A stretch of DNA of 64,000 bases, from positions 19,478-83,477 of the forward strand of contig JBGTNI010000047.1 in assembly GCA_041743105.1 (NCBI GenBank), given 5' to 3'. Positions 1-50,486 of the stretch are shown here, piece after piece. Origin of the DNA: Mycobacteriales bacterium (lineage in GTDB: Bacteria; Actinomycetota; Actinomycetes; Mycobacteriales; QHCE01). Within the stretch, counting starts at the first letter, position 1. Each line of letters opens with the position of its first letter. The translations under genes and the position numbers were made by a program. The notes under the pieces are model-generated. The model was not told the DNA's origin. It saw nothing but the letters and a program-made list of their open reading frames with translations, and ran no database searches.

Positions 1-182
1 CCAACCTGTACGGAGTCATCGGCGGCGGCGGTGACGGCGGCAAGTAGGTCCGGGGGGAGACTGGCGTCATACATCAGCTGCTGCGCGCGACCCACTGCCT
101 GCAATGCTCGGTGGGTAAGCAAACCCGGATCGCCCGGACCTGCACTGGCAAAAGTGACGGCTCCGGTGGCGGCTGAACTCAT
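1..182 (-). CDS. tetrapyrrole (uroporphyrinogen-III C-) methylase family protein, N-terminal fragment; the gene runs off the left edge
   Basis: Not in the ORF track because it is truncated. Reverse translation from the ATG at 182..180 gives MSSAATGAVTFASAGPGDPGLLTHRALQAVGRAQQLMYDA, the GxGPGDPxLLT start typical of CobA/CysG-type methylases. It shares an ATGA overlap with the hemC stop. The hemA-hemC-hemD/cobA order is common in actinobacteria. Confidence 0.7.
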   Translation of the reverse strand, partial: MSSAATGAVTFASAGPGDPGLLTHRALQAVGRAQQLMYDASLPPDLLAAVTAAADDSVQV

Positions 183-2589: not shown

Positions 2590-3386
2590 CTTGCCACCGC
2601 CATACGAGGAGCCTGCGGCAATCGAGTCGGTAAAGCAGTAATTTCCGAGGGCTCGGATTCTGAAACTTCGACCGTTTGCGACTCGGCCTGGGGCGAACTC
2701 TGCGGGGGTAATGGAAGCGAATCGCCGTTGCGGCGACGGTGTTCATGGAAGGACAGGATCTGTAGCTCCATGGCCACATCCACTTTCCGGACTTCCACCC
2801 GCTCAGGGACACTGAGCAGACACGGCGCGAAGTTGAGAATGCTAGTCACTCCCGCGGCAACGAGCTGATCGCAAACCTGCTGCGAGGCGTGAGCTGGAGT
2901 CGCGATAATGCCGATCTCGGCCTTATGCACGGCTACGAGGGCGGCCAGCTGGTCCATTGCGTGCACCGTCAAGCCGGCGACATGCGTGCCGATCAAGCGC
3001 GGATCCGCGTCGGTAAGTGCCGCGATCCGAAATCCACGCGAACTGAAGCCGGCATAGCCGGCCAGTGCGCGCCCCAGGTGACCCGCGCCCACCATCACTA
3101 CCGACCAGTCTCGACCTAAACCAAGTACGTAGGAGATCTCGTCGAGCAACTGCGCGACGTCGTAGCCCACACCCCGCGTGCCGTAGGAACCAAGATAGGA
3201 CAGGTCTTTTCGAAGCTGAGCCGGATTGACTCCGGCAGCGCTCGCGAGCTCCTTGGAGGACACCGAACTCTGGCTGTCCTCACTTAGGTCGTGCAGTGTG
3301 CGCAGGTACAGGGGCAGTCGACTGACCGTTGCCGCCGGAATTTCCCGCTGTGTCAAGGCGTCGTCAGCAGGTAGTTGGTCGGTCAT
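2586..3386 (-). CDS. rex: redox-sensing transcriptional repressor Rex
   Basis: The ORF track gives 2586..3452. The conserved Rex core is present (IPAATVSRLPLYLRTL...VSSKELA...QLRKDLSYLGSYGTRGVGYDV...VGAGHLGRAL). I prefer the ATG at 3386 (MTDQL...) because a Rex operator lies at 3437..3454, inside the longer ORF. The C-terminus has a disordered tail. Confidence 0.9.
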   Translation of the reverse strand: MTDQLPADDALTQREIPAATVSRLPLYLRTLHDLSEDSQSSVSSKELASAAGVNPAQLRKDLSYLGSYGTRGVGYDVAQLLDEISYVLGLGRDWSVVMVGAGHLGRALAGYAGFSSRGFRIAALTDADPRLIGTHVAGLTVHAMDQLAALVAVHKAEIGIIATPAHASQQVCDQLVAAGVTSILNFAPCLLSVPERVEVRKVDVAMELQILSFHEHRRRNGDSLPLPPQSSPQAESQTVEVSESEPSEITALPTRLPQAPRMAVAR

Positions 3387-3436
3387 GCGGCTCTCATAAG
3401 TTGGGCGTGAATGGTCGAGGCCACCACGGTATCTGC

Positions 3437-3553: not shown

Positions 3554-4324
3554 CTACGCCACGAGACGATCAACCATCTCGACAGCCTCGACCAGCGTGT
3601 GCACCACCGGCACACCGGTAGCTTCCAGTTGAGCTGCCTCGTTCATCCCGCCTGCGAAGAGCACACATCCCATGCCCAGGACGCGGGCGGCCGCGGCGTC
3701 GTCAAGGGTGTCCCCGACAAGCACGATGTCGCGCGTCGGGGCAGCCTGCTCGGACTGCCGTGCTCCCCATAGCCCCAGTTGCGCCAGGTGCCGGCGTAAC
3801 GGCTCGGTCTTGCCCTCCAGGTCATCGAGGTTGTTATCACGGCGCCCGTCCACCCGAACGAAGTAGTCGGTGAGCCCGAACTCCGCCACCCGCGCCACGA
3901 GCTCGTCGTGAGTCCACAGCGAGAGCAGCGATTGGGTTCGGCCAAGGGCGCGCCAACGAGCTAACGCCTCCAGCGCACCTTGACTCAACCGACACGCCAC
4001 CATCCGGCGCAGATAGGCCTCGTGGAACAGCTCATCTAGCCGCAGAAACTCCTCATGGCTGACGTCACGCCCGAAGACATTGGTGTAGAACCGCCGCAGC
4101 GGCCGAGCGAATGCGGCTCGATACTGCGCTGCGGTGAGTGGGCCGGCACCAAGTCGACTCAGGCTTGTCGGCACGCTTTGGTCTGGGCGCGCTCCTGCAC
4201 CTTGGCGGGGATCAACGTGCAGCTTTGCAAGCGCTTCATTGGTAGCTTCCAGCACCACGTCTGTATCGCACAGCAATGTGCCGTTCCAGTCCCATATCAA
4301 GTGCGGCGCCATACTGTTCACCAC
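3554..4324 (-). CDS. HAD-superfamily hydrolase (phosphatase-like)
   Basis: 256-aa ORF. Motif I-like LIWDWNGTLL has Asn in place of the second Asp. Motif IV-like VLVGDTLDDAAAA is present. The start is either GTG at 4324 or ATG at 4312. Confidence 0.75.
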   Translation of the reverse strand: MVNSMAPHLIWDWNGTLLCDTDVVLEATNEALAKLHVDPRQGAGARPDQSVPTSLSRLGAGPLTAAQYRAAFARPLRRFYTNVFGRDVSHEEFLRLDELFHEAYLRRMVACRLSQGALEALARWRALGRTQSLLSLWTHDELVARVAEFGLTDYFVRVDGRRDNNLDDLEGKTEPLRRHLAQLGLWGARQSEQAAPTRDIVLVGDTLDDAAAARVLGMGCVLFAGGMNEAAQLEATGVPVVHTLVEAVEMVDRLVA

Positions 4325-4332
4325 AGTACTAC

Positions 4333-4432
4333 CGAGCAGTTCGTTACTAAGTCGGCTCGAAAGTAGCTCATGTGCAGGTGGAGAAGACTGTACTTGTCTA
4401 GAGGGGACCAGCCGCGAGGTCGGCTAGTAACC
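4333..4432 (-). repeat. copy a of a 3-copy imperfect-palindromic intergenic element (gene-proximal orientation on the minus strand)
   Basis: The reverse complement reads ...CTAGACAAGTACAGTCTTCTCCACCTGCACATGAGCTACTTTCGAGCCGACTTAGTAACGAACTGCTCGG. It aligns block by block with copies at 20741..20868 and 28456..28547. It ends about 10-20 nt before the HAD start, and its distal half overlaps the last codons of the glutaredoxin-like gene. Confidence 0.7.
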
Positions 4433-6159: not shown

Positions 6160-7275
6160 GTGGGCACCACAATGTCTGGAGTTTTCTCCCGGCGGGACGC
6201 TGAGCGGTTTAACGACCTGCTCGAAGCAGACCGCTCGAGCACCCATAATGATCTGGCTCCGCTGCTGACACTGACCCAGCGGCTGAATATCATGGGCAGC
6301 ACGGTGCACCCCGACGCCGAATTCGCCGCACGCTGCCGAACCCGCCTCATGGCGGTCGCTGCCGTGCAGAGCATTGGCAGCGACGCCGTAGCGCCTTCCC
6401 GAGGGTGGCGCCGCGGCTATCAAGGCCTTCGCCGTTATCCCGATACTCCACGTCGTGTGCCCCGTAGGCTGGCGCTGCTATCTGGCACCCTCGCGGCGCT
6501 GCTCGGCCTGTCCAGCATGGGTATGGCAAGCGGTAGCGCCCTGCCCGGACACTTGCTGTACGACTTCAAGCGCAGCAAAGAGACCGCACAGCTGGCGTTC
6601 GCCCGTTCAGATATCAACCGGGGACAGTTGCACCTGCAGTTCGCACGCACACGCCTGAATGAAGCGCAAGCAATCCAGAATGCCGCAGGCATCGACGCCG
6701 CGCTCGACGACGCCGATGCCGATACTCGCAGCGCCATGCGCGACCTCGGCGAGGCAGCGATAAGCCGAGGATCGACCACGCCGCTCGACGCTATCGACCA
6801 GTTCGAAAGCGCACAGCGCCAAGATCTCCAAGCTTGGATGGACGAGTTGTCCACCGACAAACGAACCCGTCCCGCGGAATCGCTCGCGGTATTAGACCAG
6901 GTCCAAGAGCGTTCACAAGGACTTCGCAACTCCCTGGCATGCAGCGGCGGTGTAGCCAGTTCCGGCATATCTGACGAGTTTGGACCGCTGCCAGGTGACT
7001 GCGCCGCCGCTCCGAACGCCGGCGACAAGAAGTGGGATTTCGCTATCCCTAGCAAGGAAGCCAACACTCCGGCGCGACCGCCCATACCAGGCACGCCGAA
7101 CAGCGGCGCTCCGGCACCTAATACGCCTGGTTCGCCATCGGCCTCATCGACGCCAAACCAGGGGCCGCCGCTCCTGCAGAACCCATCCTCTCCGCCTCTC
7201 GGTGGGCAGCAGGCAGGTACTCCTAAACAGGACCCTCTTGGGGACTTCCTAGGCGGGTTTTTCGAGCCACGCTAA
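6160..7275 (+). CDS. DUF5667-like single-pass membrane protein, putative anti-sigma partner
   Basis: 371 aa, immediately downstream of the ECF sigma gene. It has one hydrophobic segment (LALLSGTLAALLGLSSMGMASG), then PGHLLYDFKRSKE... helical repeats typical of DUF5667, and a Pro-rich C-terminus. Confidence 0.6.
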   Translation: MGTTMSGVFSRRDAERFNDLLEADRSSTHNDLAPLLTLTQRLNIMGSTVHPDAEFAARCRTRLMAVAAVQSIGSDAVAPSRGWRRGYQGLRRYPDTPRRVPRRLALLSGTLAALLGLSSMGMASGSALPGHLLYDFKRSKETAQLAFARSDINRGQLHLQFARTRLNEAQAIQNAAGIDAALDDADADTRSAMRDLGEAAISRGSTTPLDAIDQFESAQRQDLQAWMDELSTDKRTRPAESLAVLDQVQERSQGLRNSLACSGGVASSGISDEFGPLPGDCAAAPNAGDKKWDFAIPSKEANTPARPPIPGTPNSGAPAPNTPGSPSASSTPNQGPPLLQNPSSPPLGGQQAGTPKQDPLGDFLGGFFEPR

Positions 7276-7288
7276 GGCGCACACCCTA

Positions 7289-7349
7289 AAACAACAACGT
7301 GTGCCATCTTCTCCCCGTTCATGGAAGAAGATGGCACACGTTGTTGTTT
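7289..7349. terminator. bidirectional intrinsic terminator hairpin between convergent genes
   Basis: A 24-bp perfect stem: AAACAACAACGTGTGCCATCTTCT (7289..7312) pairs with AGAAGATGGCACACGTTGTTGTTT (7326..7349), with a 13-nt loop. A T-run follows on the plus strand and an A-run precedes it. Confidence 0.75.
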
Positions 7350-7381
7350 GGCCTTGGGCGCCGTTCTACGGCGCTGTGAAG

Positions 7382-28229: not shown

Positions 28230-28455
28230 ACCTTGATTCTAGTTGACAGCGTTTGCGCTCGTCATCAAGGCCCGTAAATCAGCCAAAGGGCTGACTGATA
28301 AGGACACCGCAAGCATGGTTGAATAGCATCATGAGTATTTCACAGCTTTCCCGGCAGCCTGGTTTCGACGCCGATGTAGCTGCGAACTGTATGTGTATGG
28401 CACTCCAGATGCGCTGCCGCTAGCGCTTGCCAGCTACTACCGGTTTGCTGCGCTG

Positions 28456-28547
28456 TTTACTAATCAGTACGAAAGTAGCTAGACAGGTACAGCCTCTGAC
28501 CTGAAAATTCAGCTACTTTCTCCACTGACTTAGTAACGATCTGCTCA
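28456..28547 (+). repeat. copy c of the 3-copy imperfect-palindromic element (plus-strand orientation, upstream of the 28629 gene)
   Basis: TTTACTAATCAGTACGAAAGTAGCTAGACAGGTACAGCCTCTGACCTGAAAATTCAGCTACTTTCTCCACTGACTTAGTAACGATCTGCTCAG. Nested stems are TTACTAATCAGT/ACTGACTTAGTAA, GAAAGTAGCT/AGCTACTTTC and CAGGT/ACCTG. Confidence 0.75.
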
Positions 28548-28628
28548 GTCGGCGTGACGTAACTCCCGCCGCTTTCTCGACAGACCAGTTCTGGCTCTCT
28601 TAAGCCCTCTGACCGCGTCGGCTCAGGC

Positions 28629-29423
28629 GTGTTAACGCCGCCGCCTCATTTCTGGACCATAGTGATGATCAGTCTCACCACACAGTCGCACACAGCGGCC
28701 GATACCGCGACCTATCTCGCACACTACCTGCGTCTGTTACCCGACGATGCTCACCGCGCGGCGATCCTTCGATTACTGCGACAACTGGAGCCCGCCGCGG
28801 CGGGCGAGCTCGCCGATTACCTTCGCCAACTGGACGTCAGCGTGGCGGCTGACCCTCGGTTTCGGGAGACCTACTTGTTCGCACCGCGACAATGGTCTTC
28901 CAGGACCCTCGAGCAGTTGGCGCTCCGCTGGGCGCACCCCGCGCTACGCCATTTGGTCTCAGTGCCTGAAAGCGTCACGAGGGAAGCCGCGACCACAGAT
29001 GCGGCGGCGGCCACACTGTTTTTCCGCGAACCTGGTGGCATCTCCGACATGTGGGTGCTTGCAATCCCCGAGGGTACTGAGGTAACGCTCGCCACGATGG
29101 GCTCGACGCTAGCGATCGCGCCGGTCGGGGATGTCGAGTTGGCTATGGACGGTCATCCGGTAGCCGGCTCCTCGGTGGCGGTGTCGCAGCAACGCACGGT
29201 CAGCGTCACACCGGCCAGCAGCCGCGGGCAGGGATGCTTGGCGATGGTGGTGGCTTCCAGGGCGCTGCTGGACACGGCGTCTGCTGCGCAATGGTTGACA
29301 TCGCACAGTGCCGGGGCACGGGCGGAACCTGTTAATGCCACAGCTGAGATACCGCGCTCGAAATATCAGCACGGACCCCGCTCAAACTCAATCGGCCTGC
29401 GGCACGCGCCTGCTCCCAGTTAA
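28629..29423 (+). CDS. hypothetical protein
   Basis: 264-aa ORF with a plausible composition: a helical N-terminal half and a beta-rich C-terminal half. I recognise no motif. The last ~90 nt overlap the convergent sterol-carrier-family gene, so the 3' end or the coding status is uncertain. Confidence 0.45.
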   Translation: MLTPPPHFWTIVMISLTTQSHTAADTATYLAHYLRLLPDDAHRAAILRLLRQLEPAAAGELADYLRQLDVSVAADPRFRETYLFAPRQWSSRTLEQLALRWAHPALRHLVSVPESVTREAATTDAAAATLFFREPGGISDMWVLAIPEGTEVTLATMGSTLAIAPVGDVELAMDGHPVAGSSVAVSQQRTVSVTPASSRGQGCLAMVVASRALLDTASAAQWLTSHSAGARAEPVNATAEIPRSKYQHGPRSNSIGLRHAPAPS

Positions 29424-45733: not shown

Positions 45734-47954
<2,221 letters not shown>

Positions 47955-48179
47955 ACGAAGTCCGCCCGAGTAACGATAGGCTTGGCCAACACTAAGAGTG
48001 TCCGGCAACAGGACGTTCGTAGCGAGGTCTCGAAGTTAGGTGGCTTGTCTGGTCAGCATGGCAAGGCGTAGCAGGAGGTCATGCTGGATAGTATGGACAA
48101 CGTTGATCACGCAGCCAGGCGAAGTGCCGGGGAACGCCGCGGTAGAACAGCGCCTATTGCCGGGCGCTCTAGGTAGGGG

Positions 48180-50486
48180 GTGTTATCTGTGCAGGACACC
48201 AACCGAAACTCCGACAACCGCGTGGAGTCTGACGCAGCGAACCACGGCGAGGCCGAGCAGCAACCAGCCTGGGCGCCACCACAGGCAAGCCACAACGCGT
48301 ACTTCGACGATCAACGCACTGTGTACCAACGAATGACGCACGAGGCTAAGACCTCTCCCGAGGACGACGTCGATGACGTGTTCAGCGCCCCTCTGGAAGC
48401 TGCCGATGAGCACCCCACCACACAGCTCGATCTTCCCGGTATGCAGACTCCGAAGACGCCAACCGACTCGATTAGCTCTGGCGACGACCCAACTACGCAA
48501 CTGACTCCGGGCAACTGGACGGTAGTCGCCGGCCAAAGCGCTCAGCCGGAAACCTTTGGCCCTCCTGGGGCAGCGCTGAGCGACCTACACGACGAGGGGC
48601 TCGGCGCTACCATGCACGGCAACCAAGCGTTTGCCTCCTTCCCTGCCCAGGAAGACGCGCAGGACTCGCAAGAGACCACGATGCTTGCCGGCACCCAACA
48701 GCCACCCGAGTCAGAGCAGGTAGCAACGGGTGAGCCTGCCCTGCCGGCAGACGGCAACTCGGCGGACTCGGCAACCAACCAAACGAGGAACGATGAGGCA
48801 GGCGGGCAGACTCCGCTAGCCGATCCCGAAGATGCCGCTACGACCATGCTCACACCGGAGTATGCGCAGCAGTACACCGAGCTATCCGACCAGGCAGCAC
48901 AGCAGGCGGCCCCGCAAGCTAGTCAGCAGACCGGCGGCGACGGACAGGCCGACTACAGCCAGCAGCTCCAGCCCCATCACCAGACGACCGACGGTCAGCC
49001 CGACTACTTTGCCCCTCAGTCTGTACCCCCCCAGCCTTACCAGGACCAGCCCTACGGCGGGCAACAAGGATGGGGTGAGCAGGCGACGTATCTGCAGCAG
49101 CCATACGCCGAGCAACCGTTCTATCCCGATCCGCAACAGAATTATCAGGCTGACACCGGCTATCTGCCGTACGAAGCCGAACAGCCCGGTTACCCGGCCG
49201 GCTATACGCCACAACAGACACCGTTCGACCCATCCCACGGCGCTGCTTTACGTGACGCGCCAACGGGATACCCGCCCTACGCCGAGCCACAGCCCGGTTA
49301 CCACACACCTGAGCAGCAGCATTATCTACCGGCGGAACACCAGTACACGAAGCACCCGTACACGGCGCCCGAACAGCACTATCCCGCACTAGAACATCAG
49401 CACGCCGAACCTGCTCTTGGCGAACCTCCGGTGCCTGAGCACCCAGTGGAGATGGCATCACAACAGGTACCGGTACTGCCCGTCGGCGCCACTCCGATAG
49501 GCGAGGAAGCACAGCACCGCCCCTACATGGTTCCGCAGAACGTTCCCGGTCGATTCGTACCGACAGCAGAAGAGTTCGCTGCTCGCCGCGCTCACAAACC
49601 ACAGACCCCAGAGGCCACTATGGGTCTACCGGGGTTGGTCAAACGGCTCACCTTCGGCATCTTCGCTCCGCCCATGTCGAAGAAGGAAGAAGAGCACCGC
49701 GAGTACGTCACGACGGTGCGCCGCAACTTCGGCGGTCTGCGCCAGATCACTGTCGTCAACCCCAAGGGTGGTGCCGGCAAGACCGTCGCCAGCTTGATGA
49801 CGGCCATGACTTTCGGTCAGAACCGTGGCGGTTATGTGCTGGCTTGGGACAACAACGAGACCCAAGGAACGCTGGGGATGCGGGCGCAACCCGATTTCCA
49901 CGCCCACACGGTCCGCGATGTGTTGCAGTCGCTGGACACGTTCCTGGCAGCCAGCGGAAAGGTCGGAGATCTGTCCAGCTTCGTCCGCTCGCAGGGTGAG
50001 GCGATGTTCGACGTCTTGGCCTCCGATGAGTCGGCGACCGCAGGCGAGATGCTTACCGCTGCCGCGTTCAAGCAGATCCGCGAAGTCGTGAGCCGGTTCT
50101 ACAAGCTCATCATCGTCGACACCGGCAACAACGTGCGTGCCGAGAACTGGCAAGCCGCCATCGACCAGACAGATCAGCTCATGGTGACCATGTCGGCCCG
50201 AGGCGACTCCGCCGAGACCGCTGCCCGGATGCTCGACCACCTGGAGCAGACTGGGCGTTCATCCCTGGTGCGTCACGCAGTCACCGTGGTTTCCATGCCA
50301 CCGAGTCGACGCGGCCTAGACCTACCGGCCATCGAACGGCACTTCTCTGCCCGCACTCGAGCGGTGCTGATTGCACCGTACGAGCCGATCATCGACTCTG
50401 GCGAGCCAATTCACTACGAGAACATTAGTAACGCGAGTAAAGAGGCGTGGCTACGAATCGCTAGCGGCGTCGCCGAAGGCCTGTAG
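48180..50486 (+). CDS. MinD/ParA-family ATPase with a ~480-aa disordered Q/P/Y/E-rich N-terminal region
   Basis: The C-terminal ~280 aa contain ITVVNPKGGAGKTVASL (deviant Walker A) and LIIVDTGNN (Walker B). The N-terminus is low complexity (QQPYAEQPFYPDPQQNYQADTGYLPYEAEQPGYPAGYTPQQ...). The architecture resembles EspI-like proteins. Confidence 0.8.
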   Translation: MLSVQDTNRNSDNRVESDAANHGEAEQQPAWAPPQASHNAYFDDQRTVYQRMTHEAKTSPEDDVDDVFSAPLEAADEHPTTQLDLPGMQTPKTPTDSISSGDDPTTQLTPGNWTVVAGQSAQPETFGPPGAALSDLHDEGLGATMHGNQAFASFPAQEDAQDSQETTMLAGTQQPPESEQVATGEPALPADGNSADSATNQTRNDEAGGQTPLADPEDAATTMLTPEYAQQYTELSDQAAQQAAPQASQQTGGDGQADYSQQLQPHHQTTDGQPDYFAPQSVPPQPYQDQPYGGQQGWGEQATYLQQPYAEQPFYPDPQQNYQADTGYLPYEAEQPGYPAGYTPQQTPFDPSHGAALRDAPTGYPPYAEPQPGYHTPEQQHYLPAEHQYTKHPYTAPEQHYPALEHQHAEPALGEPPVPEHPVEMASQQVPVLPVGATPIGEEAQHRPYMVPQNVPGRFVPTAEEFAARRAHKPQTPEATMGLPGLVKRLTFGIFAPPMSKKEEEHREYVTTVRRNFGGLRQITVVNPKGGAGKTVASLMTAMTFGQNRGGYVLAWDNNETQGTLGMRAQPDFHAHTVRDVLQSLDTFLAASGKVGDLSSFVRSQGEAMFDVLASDESATAGEMLTAAAFKQIREVVSRFYKLIIVDTGNNVRAENWQAAIDQTDQLMVTMSARGDSAETAARMLDHLEQTGRSSLVRHAVTVVSMPPSRRGLDLPAIERHFSARTRAVLIAPYEPIIDSGEPIHYENISNASKEAWLRIASGVAEGL

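What the first reader, a model, noticed from the sequence alone, without database searches (positions are those of the whole stretch)
28456..28547. Three copies of a ~90-130-nt nested-hairpin element, each in the same orientation immediately 5' of a gene
Seen: the copies are at 4333..4432 (minus-strand sense, before the HAD gene), 20741..20868 (minus-strand sense, abutting the J/TPR-Hsp70 operon) and 28456..28547 (plus-strand sense, before the 28629 gene). Read in gene orientation, all three share these blocks: TTTACT.ATCAG...AGTAG-CTAGACA(A/G)GTACAG-(5-8 nt)-ACCTG-(variable loop; +37 nt in copy b)-AGCTACTT(T)C-(3-6 nt)-(G/T)GA(C/T)-(T/G)(T/C)AGTAACGA(A/T)C-(3 nt)-CTC(A/G)G. The outer (TTACT.ATCAG/CTGA..AGTAA), middle (AGTAGCT/AGCTACT) and inner (CAGGT/ACCTG) blocks are mutually complementary, giving a long imperfect hairpin. 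In copies a and b the element ends 0-25 nt from the start codon. Inference: it may be a shared cis-regulatory RNA or operator that defines a small regulon including the Hsp70/FtsK operon, or a REP/MITE-like repeat with an insertion preference for 5' regions. I do not recognise it as a known riboswitch class.
Basis: seen in the sequence. Interest (0 to 1): 0.6.

Follow-up and report, generated by a model that had tools for sequence, protein, structure and literature searches.

The report
Small hairpin-forming dispersed repeat, lineage-specific
Three copies of a roughly 95-base AT-rich hairpin-forming sequence sit just upstream of unrelated genes in an uncultured actinobacterium, but related genomes lack it at the same sites, so it is most likely a small mobile repeat and not a conserved regulatory RNA.

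Summary
The repeat is real. Block patterns hit exactly three sites against about zero expected by chance, and an HMM built from the three copies finds no further copy in the window. All three lie in sense orientation upstream of a gene: 18, 23 and about 113 nt.

Only two copies are complete hairpins: c (28456-28549) and b (20740-20868, with a ~37-nt internal partial duplication). Copy a (4331-4401) is only the 3' three quarters. Its supposed 5' arm is conserved coding sequence of the upstream Glrx-like gene.

The element is absent from orthologous intergenic regions of every relative I could fetch:
- Locus b is empty in three relatives. In L146 the flanks are 52/60 and 69/80 identical and 11 nt apart, against about 130 nt in the window.
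- Loci a and c each lack it in one relative.

There is no match in Rfam, plasmids, phages or viral contigs, and no true match in the genome or metagenome collections. GC is 42-49% against 62% for the window.

Best reading: a lineage-specific, MITE/ERIC/Correia-like palindromic repeat inserted into transcribed leader or intercistronic regions. The transposition mechanism and genome-wide copy number are unknown. A recently acquired regulatory role is not excluded but is not supported. It is a new member of a known kind, of low to moderate interest.

The parts
28456..28549 (+). Copy c. Complete element, 94 nt, 41.5% GC. It forms a long imperfect hairpin (outer stem TTTACTAATCAGT/ACTGACTTAGTAA, middle stem GAAAGTAGCT/AGCTACTTTC, inner stem CAGGT/ACCTG) followed by an unpaired 3' tail CGATCTGCTCAGT.
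   Evidence: MFE -34.4 kcal/mol, z -4.0; nhmmer E 4.5e-27; the hairpin persists in the 257-nt leader context.
20740..20868 (-). Copy b. Complete element, 129 nt, 48% GC. It is inserted between a conserved -10-like TATAGT (20892-20897) and the Shine-Dalgarno/GTG (20717) of the TPR-Hsp70-FtsK operon.
   Evidence: The site is empty in L146, L145 and L003.
20777..20813 (-). Internal extra segment of copy b, about 37 nt, coordinates approximate (…CTGCGCACGTGTTTACTGAGCTGACGCTTAGCAACG…). It is a diverged partial duplication of the element's own 3' arm (GCTACTT-N12-AGTAACGA unit).
   Evidence: the b-a and c-b alignments, in which a's 3' arm aligns equally to b's insert. TTTACTGAGCTG is a 2-mismatch match to the 5' arm.
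4331..4401 (-). Copy a. 5'-truncated element, 71 nt, running from CTAGACA to CTCGGT. It lies in the 85-nt spacer between the Glrx-like gene and the HAD gene. The Glrx-like stop codon TAG (4398-4400) lies inside the CTAGACA block.
   Evidence: profile positions 24-96 only, E 2.2e-17; no hairpin, -9.7 kcal/mol.
4402..4432 (-). NOT part of the element.
   Evidence: L144 has CGGTTACTGGCAGATCTC against CGGTTACTAGCCGACCTC in the window. Both encode RLLADL and differ only at synonymous positions. Pfam Glrx-like match.
20892..20897 (-). -10-like hexamer TATAGT upstream of copy b (TATAAT in L003), conserved in four genomes. It implies that b is transcribed inside the 5' UTR. This is an inference; no transcript data were available.
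   Evidence: (alignment A8).
28331..28423 (+). Conserved cysteine-rich short ORF (MSISQLSRQPGFDADVAANCMCMALQMRCR) 32 nt upstream of copy c. Copy c therefore lies in the leader between this sORF and the gene at 28662-29423.
   Evidence: L003 encodes MQIQQLSRSFQLDADVAVCCMCSMSTACCCR and L019 encodes MHISRLSRQRSYDADVAVVCMCVVSQMCCCR.

Best explanation
The three sequences are copies of a small (about 95 nt), non-coding, AT-rich, imperfectly palindromic dispersed repeat. It is specific to this lineage of an uncultured actinobacterium that NCBI labels 'Mycobacteriales bacterium'. It belongs to the general MITE / ERIC / Correia class.

The copies were inserted or copied into short intergenic spacers that are probably transcribed:
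- the 5' UTR of the TPR-Hsp70-FtsK operon (b);
- the leader between a Cys-rich sORF and its downstream gene (c);
- the Glrx-like to HAD intercistronic spacer (a).

They have since diverged to about 85% identity, with one truncation (a) and one internal duplication (b).

Shown here: homology of the copies, their absence at orthologous sites, and hairpin potential for b and c.

Inferred: mobility as the means of spread, transcription as part of the mRNAs, and any effect on expression. If there is an effect, the most likely one is a structural effect of the hairpin on mRNA processing, stability or translation, as described for Correia and ERIC elements.

Unknown: the mobilising enzyme.
For: - Copies far exceed chance and are 85-87% identical.
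- Empty site at b. In L146 (TPR protein 74% identical) the left flank is 52/60 and the right flank 69/80 identical to the window. The two flanks are 11 nt apart there, against about 130 nt in the window.
- L145 (TPR protein 79% identical over 74% of the query) and L003 (68%) also lack the element, while keeping the TATAGT/TATAAT box and the CGAAGGGAAGAGCTAGTGGCCGGGCTGCA start region.
- Locus c in L003 and locus a in L144 show no element. nhmmer finds nothing in any relative's locus, even at E <= 100 for L144-L146. Local alignment of the L144 spacer to the copies is no better than to shuffled sequence.
- GC is 41.5-49%, against 62% for the window.
- Structural variants typical of such repeats are present: the 5'-truncated a, and b with an internal partial duplication.
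- The outer stem of b versus c keeps pairing through changes on both arms (CAGT/ACTG to CAGC/GCTG, and AA/TT to CA/TG with a shifted bulge).
- No match in Rfam, plasmids or phages, viral contigs or GTDB genomes. The JGI metagenome scan gave only chance matches.
- The literature describes the same behaviour for Correia and ERIC: location immediately upstream of genes, co-transcription, and RNase III/E processing (PMC10969869).
Against: - Only three copies are known, all from one 64-kb window.
- No clear target-site duplication. At b there is ACTCAGAG on the left and ACTCAGTG at the element's 3' end, but the left copy is offset by 4 nt. Nothing convincing is seen at c.
- No transposase or parent IS with matching ends was found.
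- The 3' tail (GAWCNNCTCRGT) has no partner on the 5' side, so the element is not a simple TIR-bounded unit.
- The 14-mer CTAGACA(A/G)GTACAG is 13/14 conserved in all three copies, and all copies share orientation relative to genes. Both could reflect function.
- The relatives compared are different species (purF 87%, HAD 62% amino-acid identity), not strains.
Confidence: 0.65

Rival explanations
1. Functional cis-regulatory module, either an RNA hairpin in the 5' UTR or a DNA operator centred on CTAGACA(A/G)GTACAG. It ties the TPR-Hsp70-FtsK operon, the HAD-rex-hem operon and the 28662 gene into one regulon. It may have been spread by a mobile element and then domesticated.
For: - All three copies share orientation and lie close to start codons.
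- The 14-mer, AGCTACTT and AGTAACGA blocks are nearly invariant, while the loops vary.
- Copy c is a very stable hairpin (z -4.0; z -3.1 in the leader context).
- The outer stem covaries between b and c.
- Correia elements are known to supply promoters, IHF sites and RNase III sites (PMC10969869).
Against: - The element is absent upstream of the orthologous genes in every relative fetched.
- Copy a has no 5' arm and no hairpin.
- Copy b is not unusually stable in its UTR context.
- The downstream genes are functionally unrelated.
- No conserved sigma-70-like promoter: only c has a 9/12 match.
- With three copies at about 85% identity, a 13/14 block is not surprising.
Confidence: 0.15
2. Non-mobile origin. 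A local regulatory or spacer sequence was copied to two other sites within 24 kb by ectopic recombination or gene conversion, without any dedicated transposition machinery.
For: - All known copies lie within 24 kb of each other (4.3, 20.8 and 28.5 kb).
- There is no clear target-site duplication and no transposase in view.
Against: - The flanks of the copies share no homology that could drive recombination.
- At b the boundaries are sharp and only the element is added.
- No locus in the relatives carries an ancestral version from which the others could derive.
- AT-rich composition suggests a foreign or selfish origin.
Confidence: 0.1
3. Single-strand hairpin element of the IS200/IS605 (PATE) or REP/RAYT type. 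It would be mobilised by a Y1 (HUH) transposase, insert 3' of a short target such as TTTAC, and make no target duplication.
For: - The element is strand-asymmetric (hairpin plus one-sided tail) and has no clear TSD.
- At b, the relative L146 has ATGAC where the window has ATTTAC immediately before the inserted block, so TTTAC could be flank/target and not part of the element.
- GTAG occurs next to the stem. That REPs carry a conserved GTAG is from my own knowledge of REP elements.
Against: - No Y1 transposase or RAYT gene was seen, but I did not screen the window's ORFs systematically.
- Copies a and b are on the minus strand and c on the plus strand within 24 kb, whereas this family usually shows a strand bias on one replichore (from knowledge of the family).
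- The element is one long hairpin and not two subterminal hairpins.
Confidence: 0.1

Closest known systems
Correia repeat-enclosed elements (Neisseria MITEs)
   Same: - About 100-200 nt, non-coding, with inverted-repeat ends that form a hairpin in RNA.
- Mapped predominantly immediately upstream of genes and co-transcribed.
- Show presence/absence differences between related genomes (PMC10969869).
   Different: - No sequence similarity.
- Correia elements have defined 26-bp TIRs, a TA target duplication, more than 100 copies, and demonstrated promoters, IHF sites and RNase III cleavage.
- None of these could be shown here.
- The host is an actinobacterium, a phylum that review does not mention.
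ERIC / IRU (enterobacterial repetitive intergenic consensus)
   Same: - An imperfect palindrome of about 127 bp, lying in transcribed intergenic regions.
- Size variants arise by internal insertion or deletion.
- Copy number is lineage-dependent, and effects on mRNA decay are known (PMC10969869; the size and the variants are from my own knowledge).
   Different: - Unrelated sequence and a different phylum.
- ERIC is found across many genera, whereas this element was found only in one species-level lineage.
MIRU (mycobacterial interspersed repetitive units)
   Same: - Actinobacterial host (Mycobacteriales).
- Sits in intercistronic spacers in the same orientation as the flanking genes, and can overlap the stop or start codons of neighbours. 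Copy a contains the upstream stop codon.
- These MIRU properties are from my own knowledge.
   Different: - MIRUs are 40-100-bp direct tandem repeats and are not hairpins.
- Here there are single palindromic units; only b has one partial internal duplication.
Riboswitches / structured 5' leaders (Rfam families)
   Same: Position in 5' leaders, and a stable nested hairpin in copy c.
   Different: - No Rfam match, even at E <= 10.
- Not conserved upstream of orthologues.
- One copy lacks half of the structure.

Membership tests
MITE (miniature inverted-repeat transposable element) | Small (under about 300 bp), with no coding capacity | tested here: met
   Copies are 71-129 nt. Copy c has stop codons in all three forward frames (read). 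No ORF is shared between copies.
MITE (miniature inverted-repeat transposable element) | Terminal inverted repeats | tested here: inconclusive
   Copies b and c have a 12-13-bp imperfect outer inverted repeat (TTTACTNATCAG / CTGA..AGTAA). However, a conserved 12-nt tail follows the 3' arm without a 5' partner, and copy a has no 5' arm.
MITE (miniature inverted-repeat transposable element) | Target-site duplication flanking each copy | tested here: inconclusive
   At b, ACTCAGAG lies 4 nt left of the element and ACTCAGTG lies at its 3' end. Nothing convincing is seen at c, and a is truncated. Three copies are too few to decide.
MITE (miniature inverted-repeat transposable element) | Multiple dispersed copies in one genome | tested here: inconclusive
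   There are three copies in 64 kb.
MITE (miniature inverted-repeat transposable element) | Presence/absence at orthologous sites (empty sites) | tested here: met
   Locus b is empty in L146, L145 and L003, with alignable flanks. Locus c in L003 and locus a in L144 carry no element.
MITE (miniature inverted-repeat transposable element) | A parent IS or transposase with matching ends | not testable with these tools
   No further arm matches in the window beyond chance: 7 found against 4.6 expected.
REP/BIME with RAYT | Palindromes of 20-40 nt with a conserved 5' GTAG, very many copies, and an associated RAYT gene | not tested
   The element is longer (about 95 nt). GTAG is present next to the middle stem. 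I did not screen for a RAYT gene, and the copy number is unknown.
Conserved cis-regulatory RNA (riboswitch/leader) | Present upstream of orthologous genes in related genomes | tested here: not met
   Absent at locus b in three relatives, and at loci a and c in one relative each.
Conserved cis-regulatory RNA (riboswitch/leader) | Common secondary structure in all members, supported by covariation | tested here: not met
   Copy a lacks the 5' half. Copy b is no more stable than shuffles in context. Some compensatory change is seen in the outer stem between b and c only.
Any Rfam 15 family | Score at or above the family's gathering threshold | tested here: not met
   There were 0 hits in the whole window. 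In 28300-28700 there were only chance-level hits at E <= 10; the best was 16.6 bits against a gathering score of 50.
MIRU | Tandem direct repeats of 40-100 bp in intercistronic regions | tested here: not met
   These are single units. The repeat finder lists no tandem array at these sites among the families it shows. Only b carries one diverged internal partial duplication.

The most novel reading that the evidence does not exclude
The element is a mobile regulatory cassette that has been domesticated in this lineage. Its invariant 14-mer (CTAGACA[A/G]GTACAG), or its hairpin, would be bound by a host factor or cut by RNase III. Its spread would then have newly wired an Hsp70-like/FtsK-like operon, the HAD-rex-hem operon and a Cys-attenuated gene into a common post-transcriptional or transcriptional control. 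That would be an observable case of regulon birth by repeat insertion in Actinobacteria.
Probability: 0.1. Interest if true: 0.55.

Novelty: new member of a known kind. Interest (0 to 1): 0.25.

Why it matters
This would be a modest result. Small palindromic mobile repeats are well known in proteobacteria, cyanobacteria and firmicutes but are little described in Actinobacteria; the 2024 MITE review read here does not mention the phylum. A family caught soon after insertion into 5' leaders would give a handle on how such repeats reshape UTRs in high-GC Gram-positives. Here the leaders include an unusual TPR-Hsp70-FtsK operon and a Cys-sORF leader.

It also matters as a caution. Repeated 'nested hairpins upstream of genes' should not be taken as a riboswitch class without checking orthologous loci.

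Tried and rejected
1. Known RNA family. Rfam gave nothing at gathering threshold on the whole window, and nothing meaningful at E <= 10 on the c region.
2. Finding more copies by DNA pattern.
   - GTDB genomes: 0 hits.
   - JGI metagenomes: 12 hits, all chance. None has the CTAGACA block. The best-looking pair, L008/L012, is the coding 3' end (…EMVVTLACPK*) of a gene on the opposite strand.
   - Viral contigs: the loose pattern gave only chance hits and the strict pattern gave 0.
   - Plasmid and phage blastn: no match.
3. Protein-anchored scan of GTDB with the Hsp70-like protein.
4. Extending the source contig. Look-ups of the right-end protein and of purF P0001 were not on record. The left-end Logan contig L141 adds about 2.5 kb and holds no copy.
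5. Promoter ideas.
   - A sigma-70-like TAGACA-17-GAAAAT exists only in c.
   - GTAACG as a SigD-type -35 box (consensus recalled from memory) has no consistent -10 box at 16-20 nt in the three copies (reading).
   - ECF-type CGTT on the reverse strand would point away from the genes.
   - All three were rejected.
6. The idea that locus a is the ancestral source. The MAFFT alignment to the L144 spacer looked suggestive, but local-alignment scores are no better than shuffles: 282 of 1000 shuffles scored at least as well for a.
7. An antisense peptide (E-Q/S-I/F-V-T-K/A-S-x-x-K*). It is shared only as a consequence of DNA identity, and c is frame-shifted, so it was rejected.
8. Target-site duplication. 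This remains inconclusive; see the membership table.
9. Covariance model. I did not build one. With three sequences, and MAFFT mis-registering the middle stem, nhmmer was the more reliable scanner.

Full report
**What is in the sequence.**
- The block CTAGACA(A/G)GTACAG occurs exactly at 4388-4401(-), 20830-20843(-) and 28479-28492(+).
- The patterns AGCTACTT-N4-20-AGTAACGA and CTAGACANGTACAG…AGTAACGA each hit exactly these three places, with 0.00 expected in dinucleotide shuffles.
- A profile HMM built from the three copies finds them again at E = 4.5e-27 (c, 28456-28552), 8.2e-25 (b, 20737-20867) and 2.2e-17 (a), and finds nothing else in the 64 kb.
- Aligned positions are 85-87% identical.
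- The copies have 41.5-49% G+C, in a window of 62%.

**Anatomy.**
- Copy c (28456-28549) is a clean long hairpin plus an unpaired 3' tail (CGATCTGCTCAGT). It folds at -34.4 kcal/mol with z = -4.0, and the hairpin survives when the whole 257-nt leader is folded.
- Copy b (20740-20868) keeps the outer and middle stems when folded alone. It carries about 37 extra bases that are a diverged duplication of its own 3' arm. With flanks or in its UTR context it is no more stable than shuffled sequence.
- Between b and c the outer stem stays paired through changes on both arms.
- Copy a is different. Homology begins only at CTAGACA (profile positions 24-96).
A distant relative encodes the same peptide with synonymous changes (L144).
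- Copy a alone has no hairpin (-9.7 kcal/mol).

**Context.**
- Pfam and the called genes in related contigs give the gene order.
  - Locus a: Glrx-like, then [a], then HAD, rex, hemA and hemC.
  - Locus b: BldC-like HTH, then [b], then TPR protein, Hsp70-like, an 87-aa protein and FtsK/SpoIIIE-like.
  - Locus c: purF divergent from a Cys-rich sORF, then [c], then a 252-aa protein of unknown family.
- Copy a ends 18 nt before the ATG at 4312, the start used by the database protein P0121.
- Copy b ends 23 nt before the GTG at 20717. That start and its AAGGGAAG Shine-Dalgarno are conserved in relatives.
- Copy c ends about 113 nt before GTG/ATG 28662/28665, by comparison with L003.
- A -10-like TATAGT/TATAAT box upstream of b is conserved in four genomes. 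Copy b is therefore very probably inside the 5' UTR.
- Copy a is intercistronic, and c lies in the leader behind the sORF. Transcription of all three is inferred, not shown.

**Where the window comes from.**
- The purF protein is 100% identical to an NCBI MAG protein on a 91,844-nt contig. Its 90% cluster carries the label 'MAG … [Mycobacteriales bacterium]'.
- Logan assemblies SRR28170472 and SRR28170461 contain identical a and b loci.
- Named relatives are only about 80% identical in purF (Cryptosporangiaceae, Micromonosporaceae). This is a poorly sampled lineage.

**The key test: orthologous loci.** I fetched syntenic contigs of relatives through purF, HAD and TPR homologues.
- L146 (JGI; TPR 74% identical) is the clearest case. 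Sixty bases left of b are 52/60 identical and eighty bases right of it are 69/80 identical to the window. The two flanks are 11 nt apart there, against about 130 nt in the window.
- L145 (GCA_973789825.1; TPR 79% identical over 74% of the query) and L003 (TPR 68%, purF 87%) likewise keep the -10 box and the start region and lack the element.
- The purF to 242-aa-gene spacer of L003 keeps the Cys-rich sORF but has no element.
- The Glrx-like to HAD spacer of L144 has none. Its similarity to the copies is no better than to shuffles.
- nhmmer found no copy in any relative's locus: about 165 kb at E <= 10, and L144-L146 even at E <= 100.
- Exact-pattern scans of GTDB genomes, JGI metagenomes and IMG/VR, and blastn against plasmids and phages, gave no true match.

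**Interpretation.** The following combination is the signature of a small dispersed, probably mobile, palindromic repeat:
- a sequence about 85% identical at three unrelated intergenic sites of one genome;
- AT-rich composition;
- a truncated variant and an internally duplicated variant;
- cleanly missing from the same sites in related genomes.

This is the class that includes MITEs such as Correia, and ERIC. It is not the signature of a conserved riboswitch or operator. The review read here notes that Correia elements map predominantly immediately upstream of genes. They can carry promoters and IHF sites and are cut by RNase III in transcripts, and ERIC insertions alter mRNA decay (PMC10969869). 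That is the most likely kind of effect here, if there is any. I put 0.65 on this reading.

**What remains open.**
- I could not define a target-site duplication. ACTCAGAG/ACTCAGTG at b is offset, and nothing is seen at c.
- I could not find a transposase, count copies genome-wide, or test closer relatives. The >= 90% purF contigs P0257/P0258 turned up only after the look-ups were exhausted.
- The element is asymmetric: the conserved 3' tail has no partner. At b, the TTTAC at the left edge might be flank and not element, since L146 has ATGAC there. An IS200/IS605- or REP-like single-strand mechanism therefore stays possible (0.1).
- A recently domesticated regulatory role (0.15) is not excluded. 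The 14-mer is 13/14 conserved and all copies are in sense orientation, but three agreeing orientations have a 1-in-4 chance.
- Simple ectopic duplication without mobility (0.1) is disfavoured by the sharp boundaries and by the lack of flank homology.

**Verdict.** This is a real repeat with an ordinary explanation: a new, lineage-restricted member of the small palindromic intergenic repeat class, in an under-sampled actinobacterial lineage. Interest is low to moderate.

**Noticed in passing.**
- A roughly 175-nt structured leader is present twice, at 47985-48182(+) and 56552-56748(-). It has a 17-bp closing helix with compensatory changes and no Rfam match. It looks more like a true candidate cis-regulatory RNA than the element under review.
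- The Cys-rich sORF upstream of copy c resembles the polycysteine attenuator sORFs described in mycobacteria (bioRxiv 10.1101/834739).

Noticed in passing
window 47985-48182 (+) and 56552-56748 (-): A second, unrelated repeat. It is a leader of about 175-200 nt, about 80% identical between the two sites. Each copy ends just before a GTG start: a 768-aa AAA_31/ParA-like protein at 48180, and LemA at 56554. RNAalifold gives a multi-branched fold (-56 kcal/mol) closed by a 17-bp helix. Four of the 49 predicted pairs show a compensatory change between the two copies, three of them in that closing helix. There is no Rfam hit even at E <= 1. It is a candidate unknown structured 5' leader or riboswitch. 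I could not check it in other genomes because the look-ups were exhausted.
   Followed up: partly
window 28331-28423 (+); L003 about 3311-3406 (-); L019 about 20-115 (-): A conserved 30-31-codon cysteine-rich short ORF lies between purF and the divergent gene of unknown function. The peptide tails are …DADVAANCMCMALQMRCR (window), …CCMCSMSTACCCR (L003) and …VCMCVVSQMCCCR (L019). It resembles the polycysteine attenuator sORFs of mycobacteria (bioRxiv 10.1101/834739). The window's version has fewer Cys codons and has copy c inserted 32 nt behind it.
   Followed up: partly
window 47944-47986 (+): The short stretch TTGCTAGACGAAGTCCGCCCGAGTAACGATAGGCTTGG contains loose versions of two of the element's blocks (CTAGAC… and AGTAACGA) only 12 nt apart, just 5' of the structured leader above. 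It falls below the nhmmer threshold and may be chance: its AGTAACGA-containing half is a 3-mismatch hit to the 18-nt block pattern, where 5 such hits were found against 1.1 expected.
   Followed up: partly
window about 20962-21000 (-): Three tandem copies of CACAGATT(T)AGGTG(G/C) start at the stop codon of the BldC-like HTH gene (20994-21203). They are identical in the Logan contigs L001 and L002. L146 has a looser version (GGATCAGGTGGTTCAGATTTGGGG).
   Followed up: no
window 14199-14258 (+): A tandem array of four 15-nt units, GGTGCGGCGAAGTTA / GGTGCGCTGAAGTTA. Its AGGTG…A(G/A)TTA content resembles the repeat next to the BldC-like gene.
   Followed up: no
window 14548-20717 (-); L003, L006, L145, L146: A conserved operon of TPR (J-domain-like in some relatives), an Hsp70-like protein, an 87-aa protein and an FtsK/SpoIIIE-like ATPase of about 950-980 aa, usually next to the BldC-like gene. 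It is syntenic in all relatives fetched. I did not pursue its function.
   Followed up: no
window 7276-7362: A 40-nt-arm inverted repeat, 83% complementary with a 7-nt loop, directly after the ORF 6160-7275. It is probably a large terminator-like hairpin.
   Followed up: no
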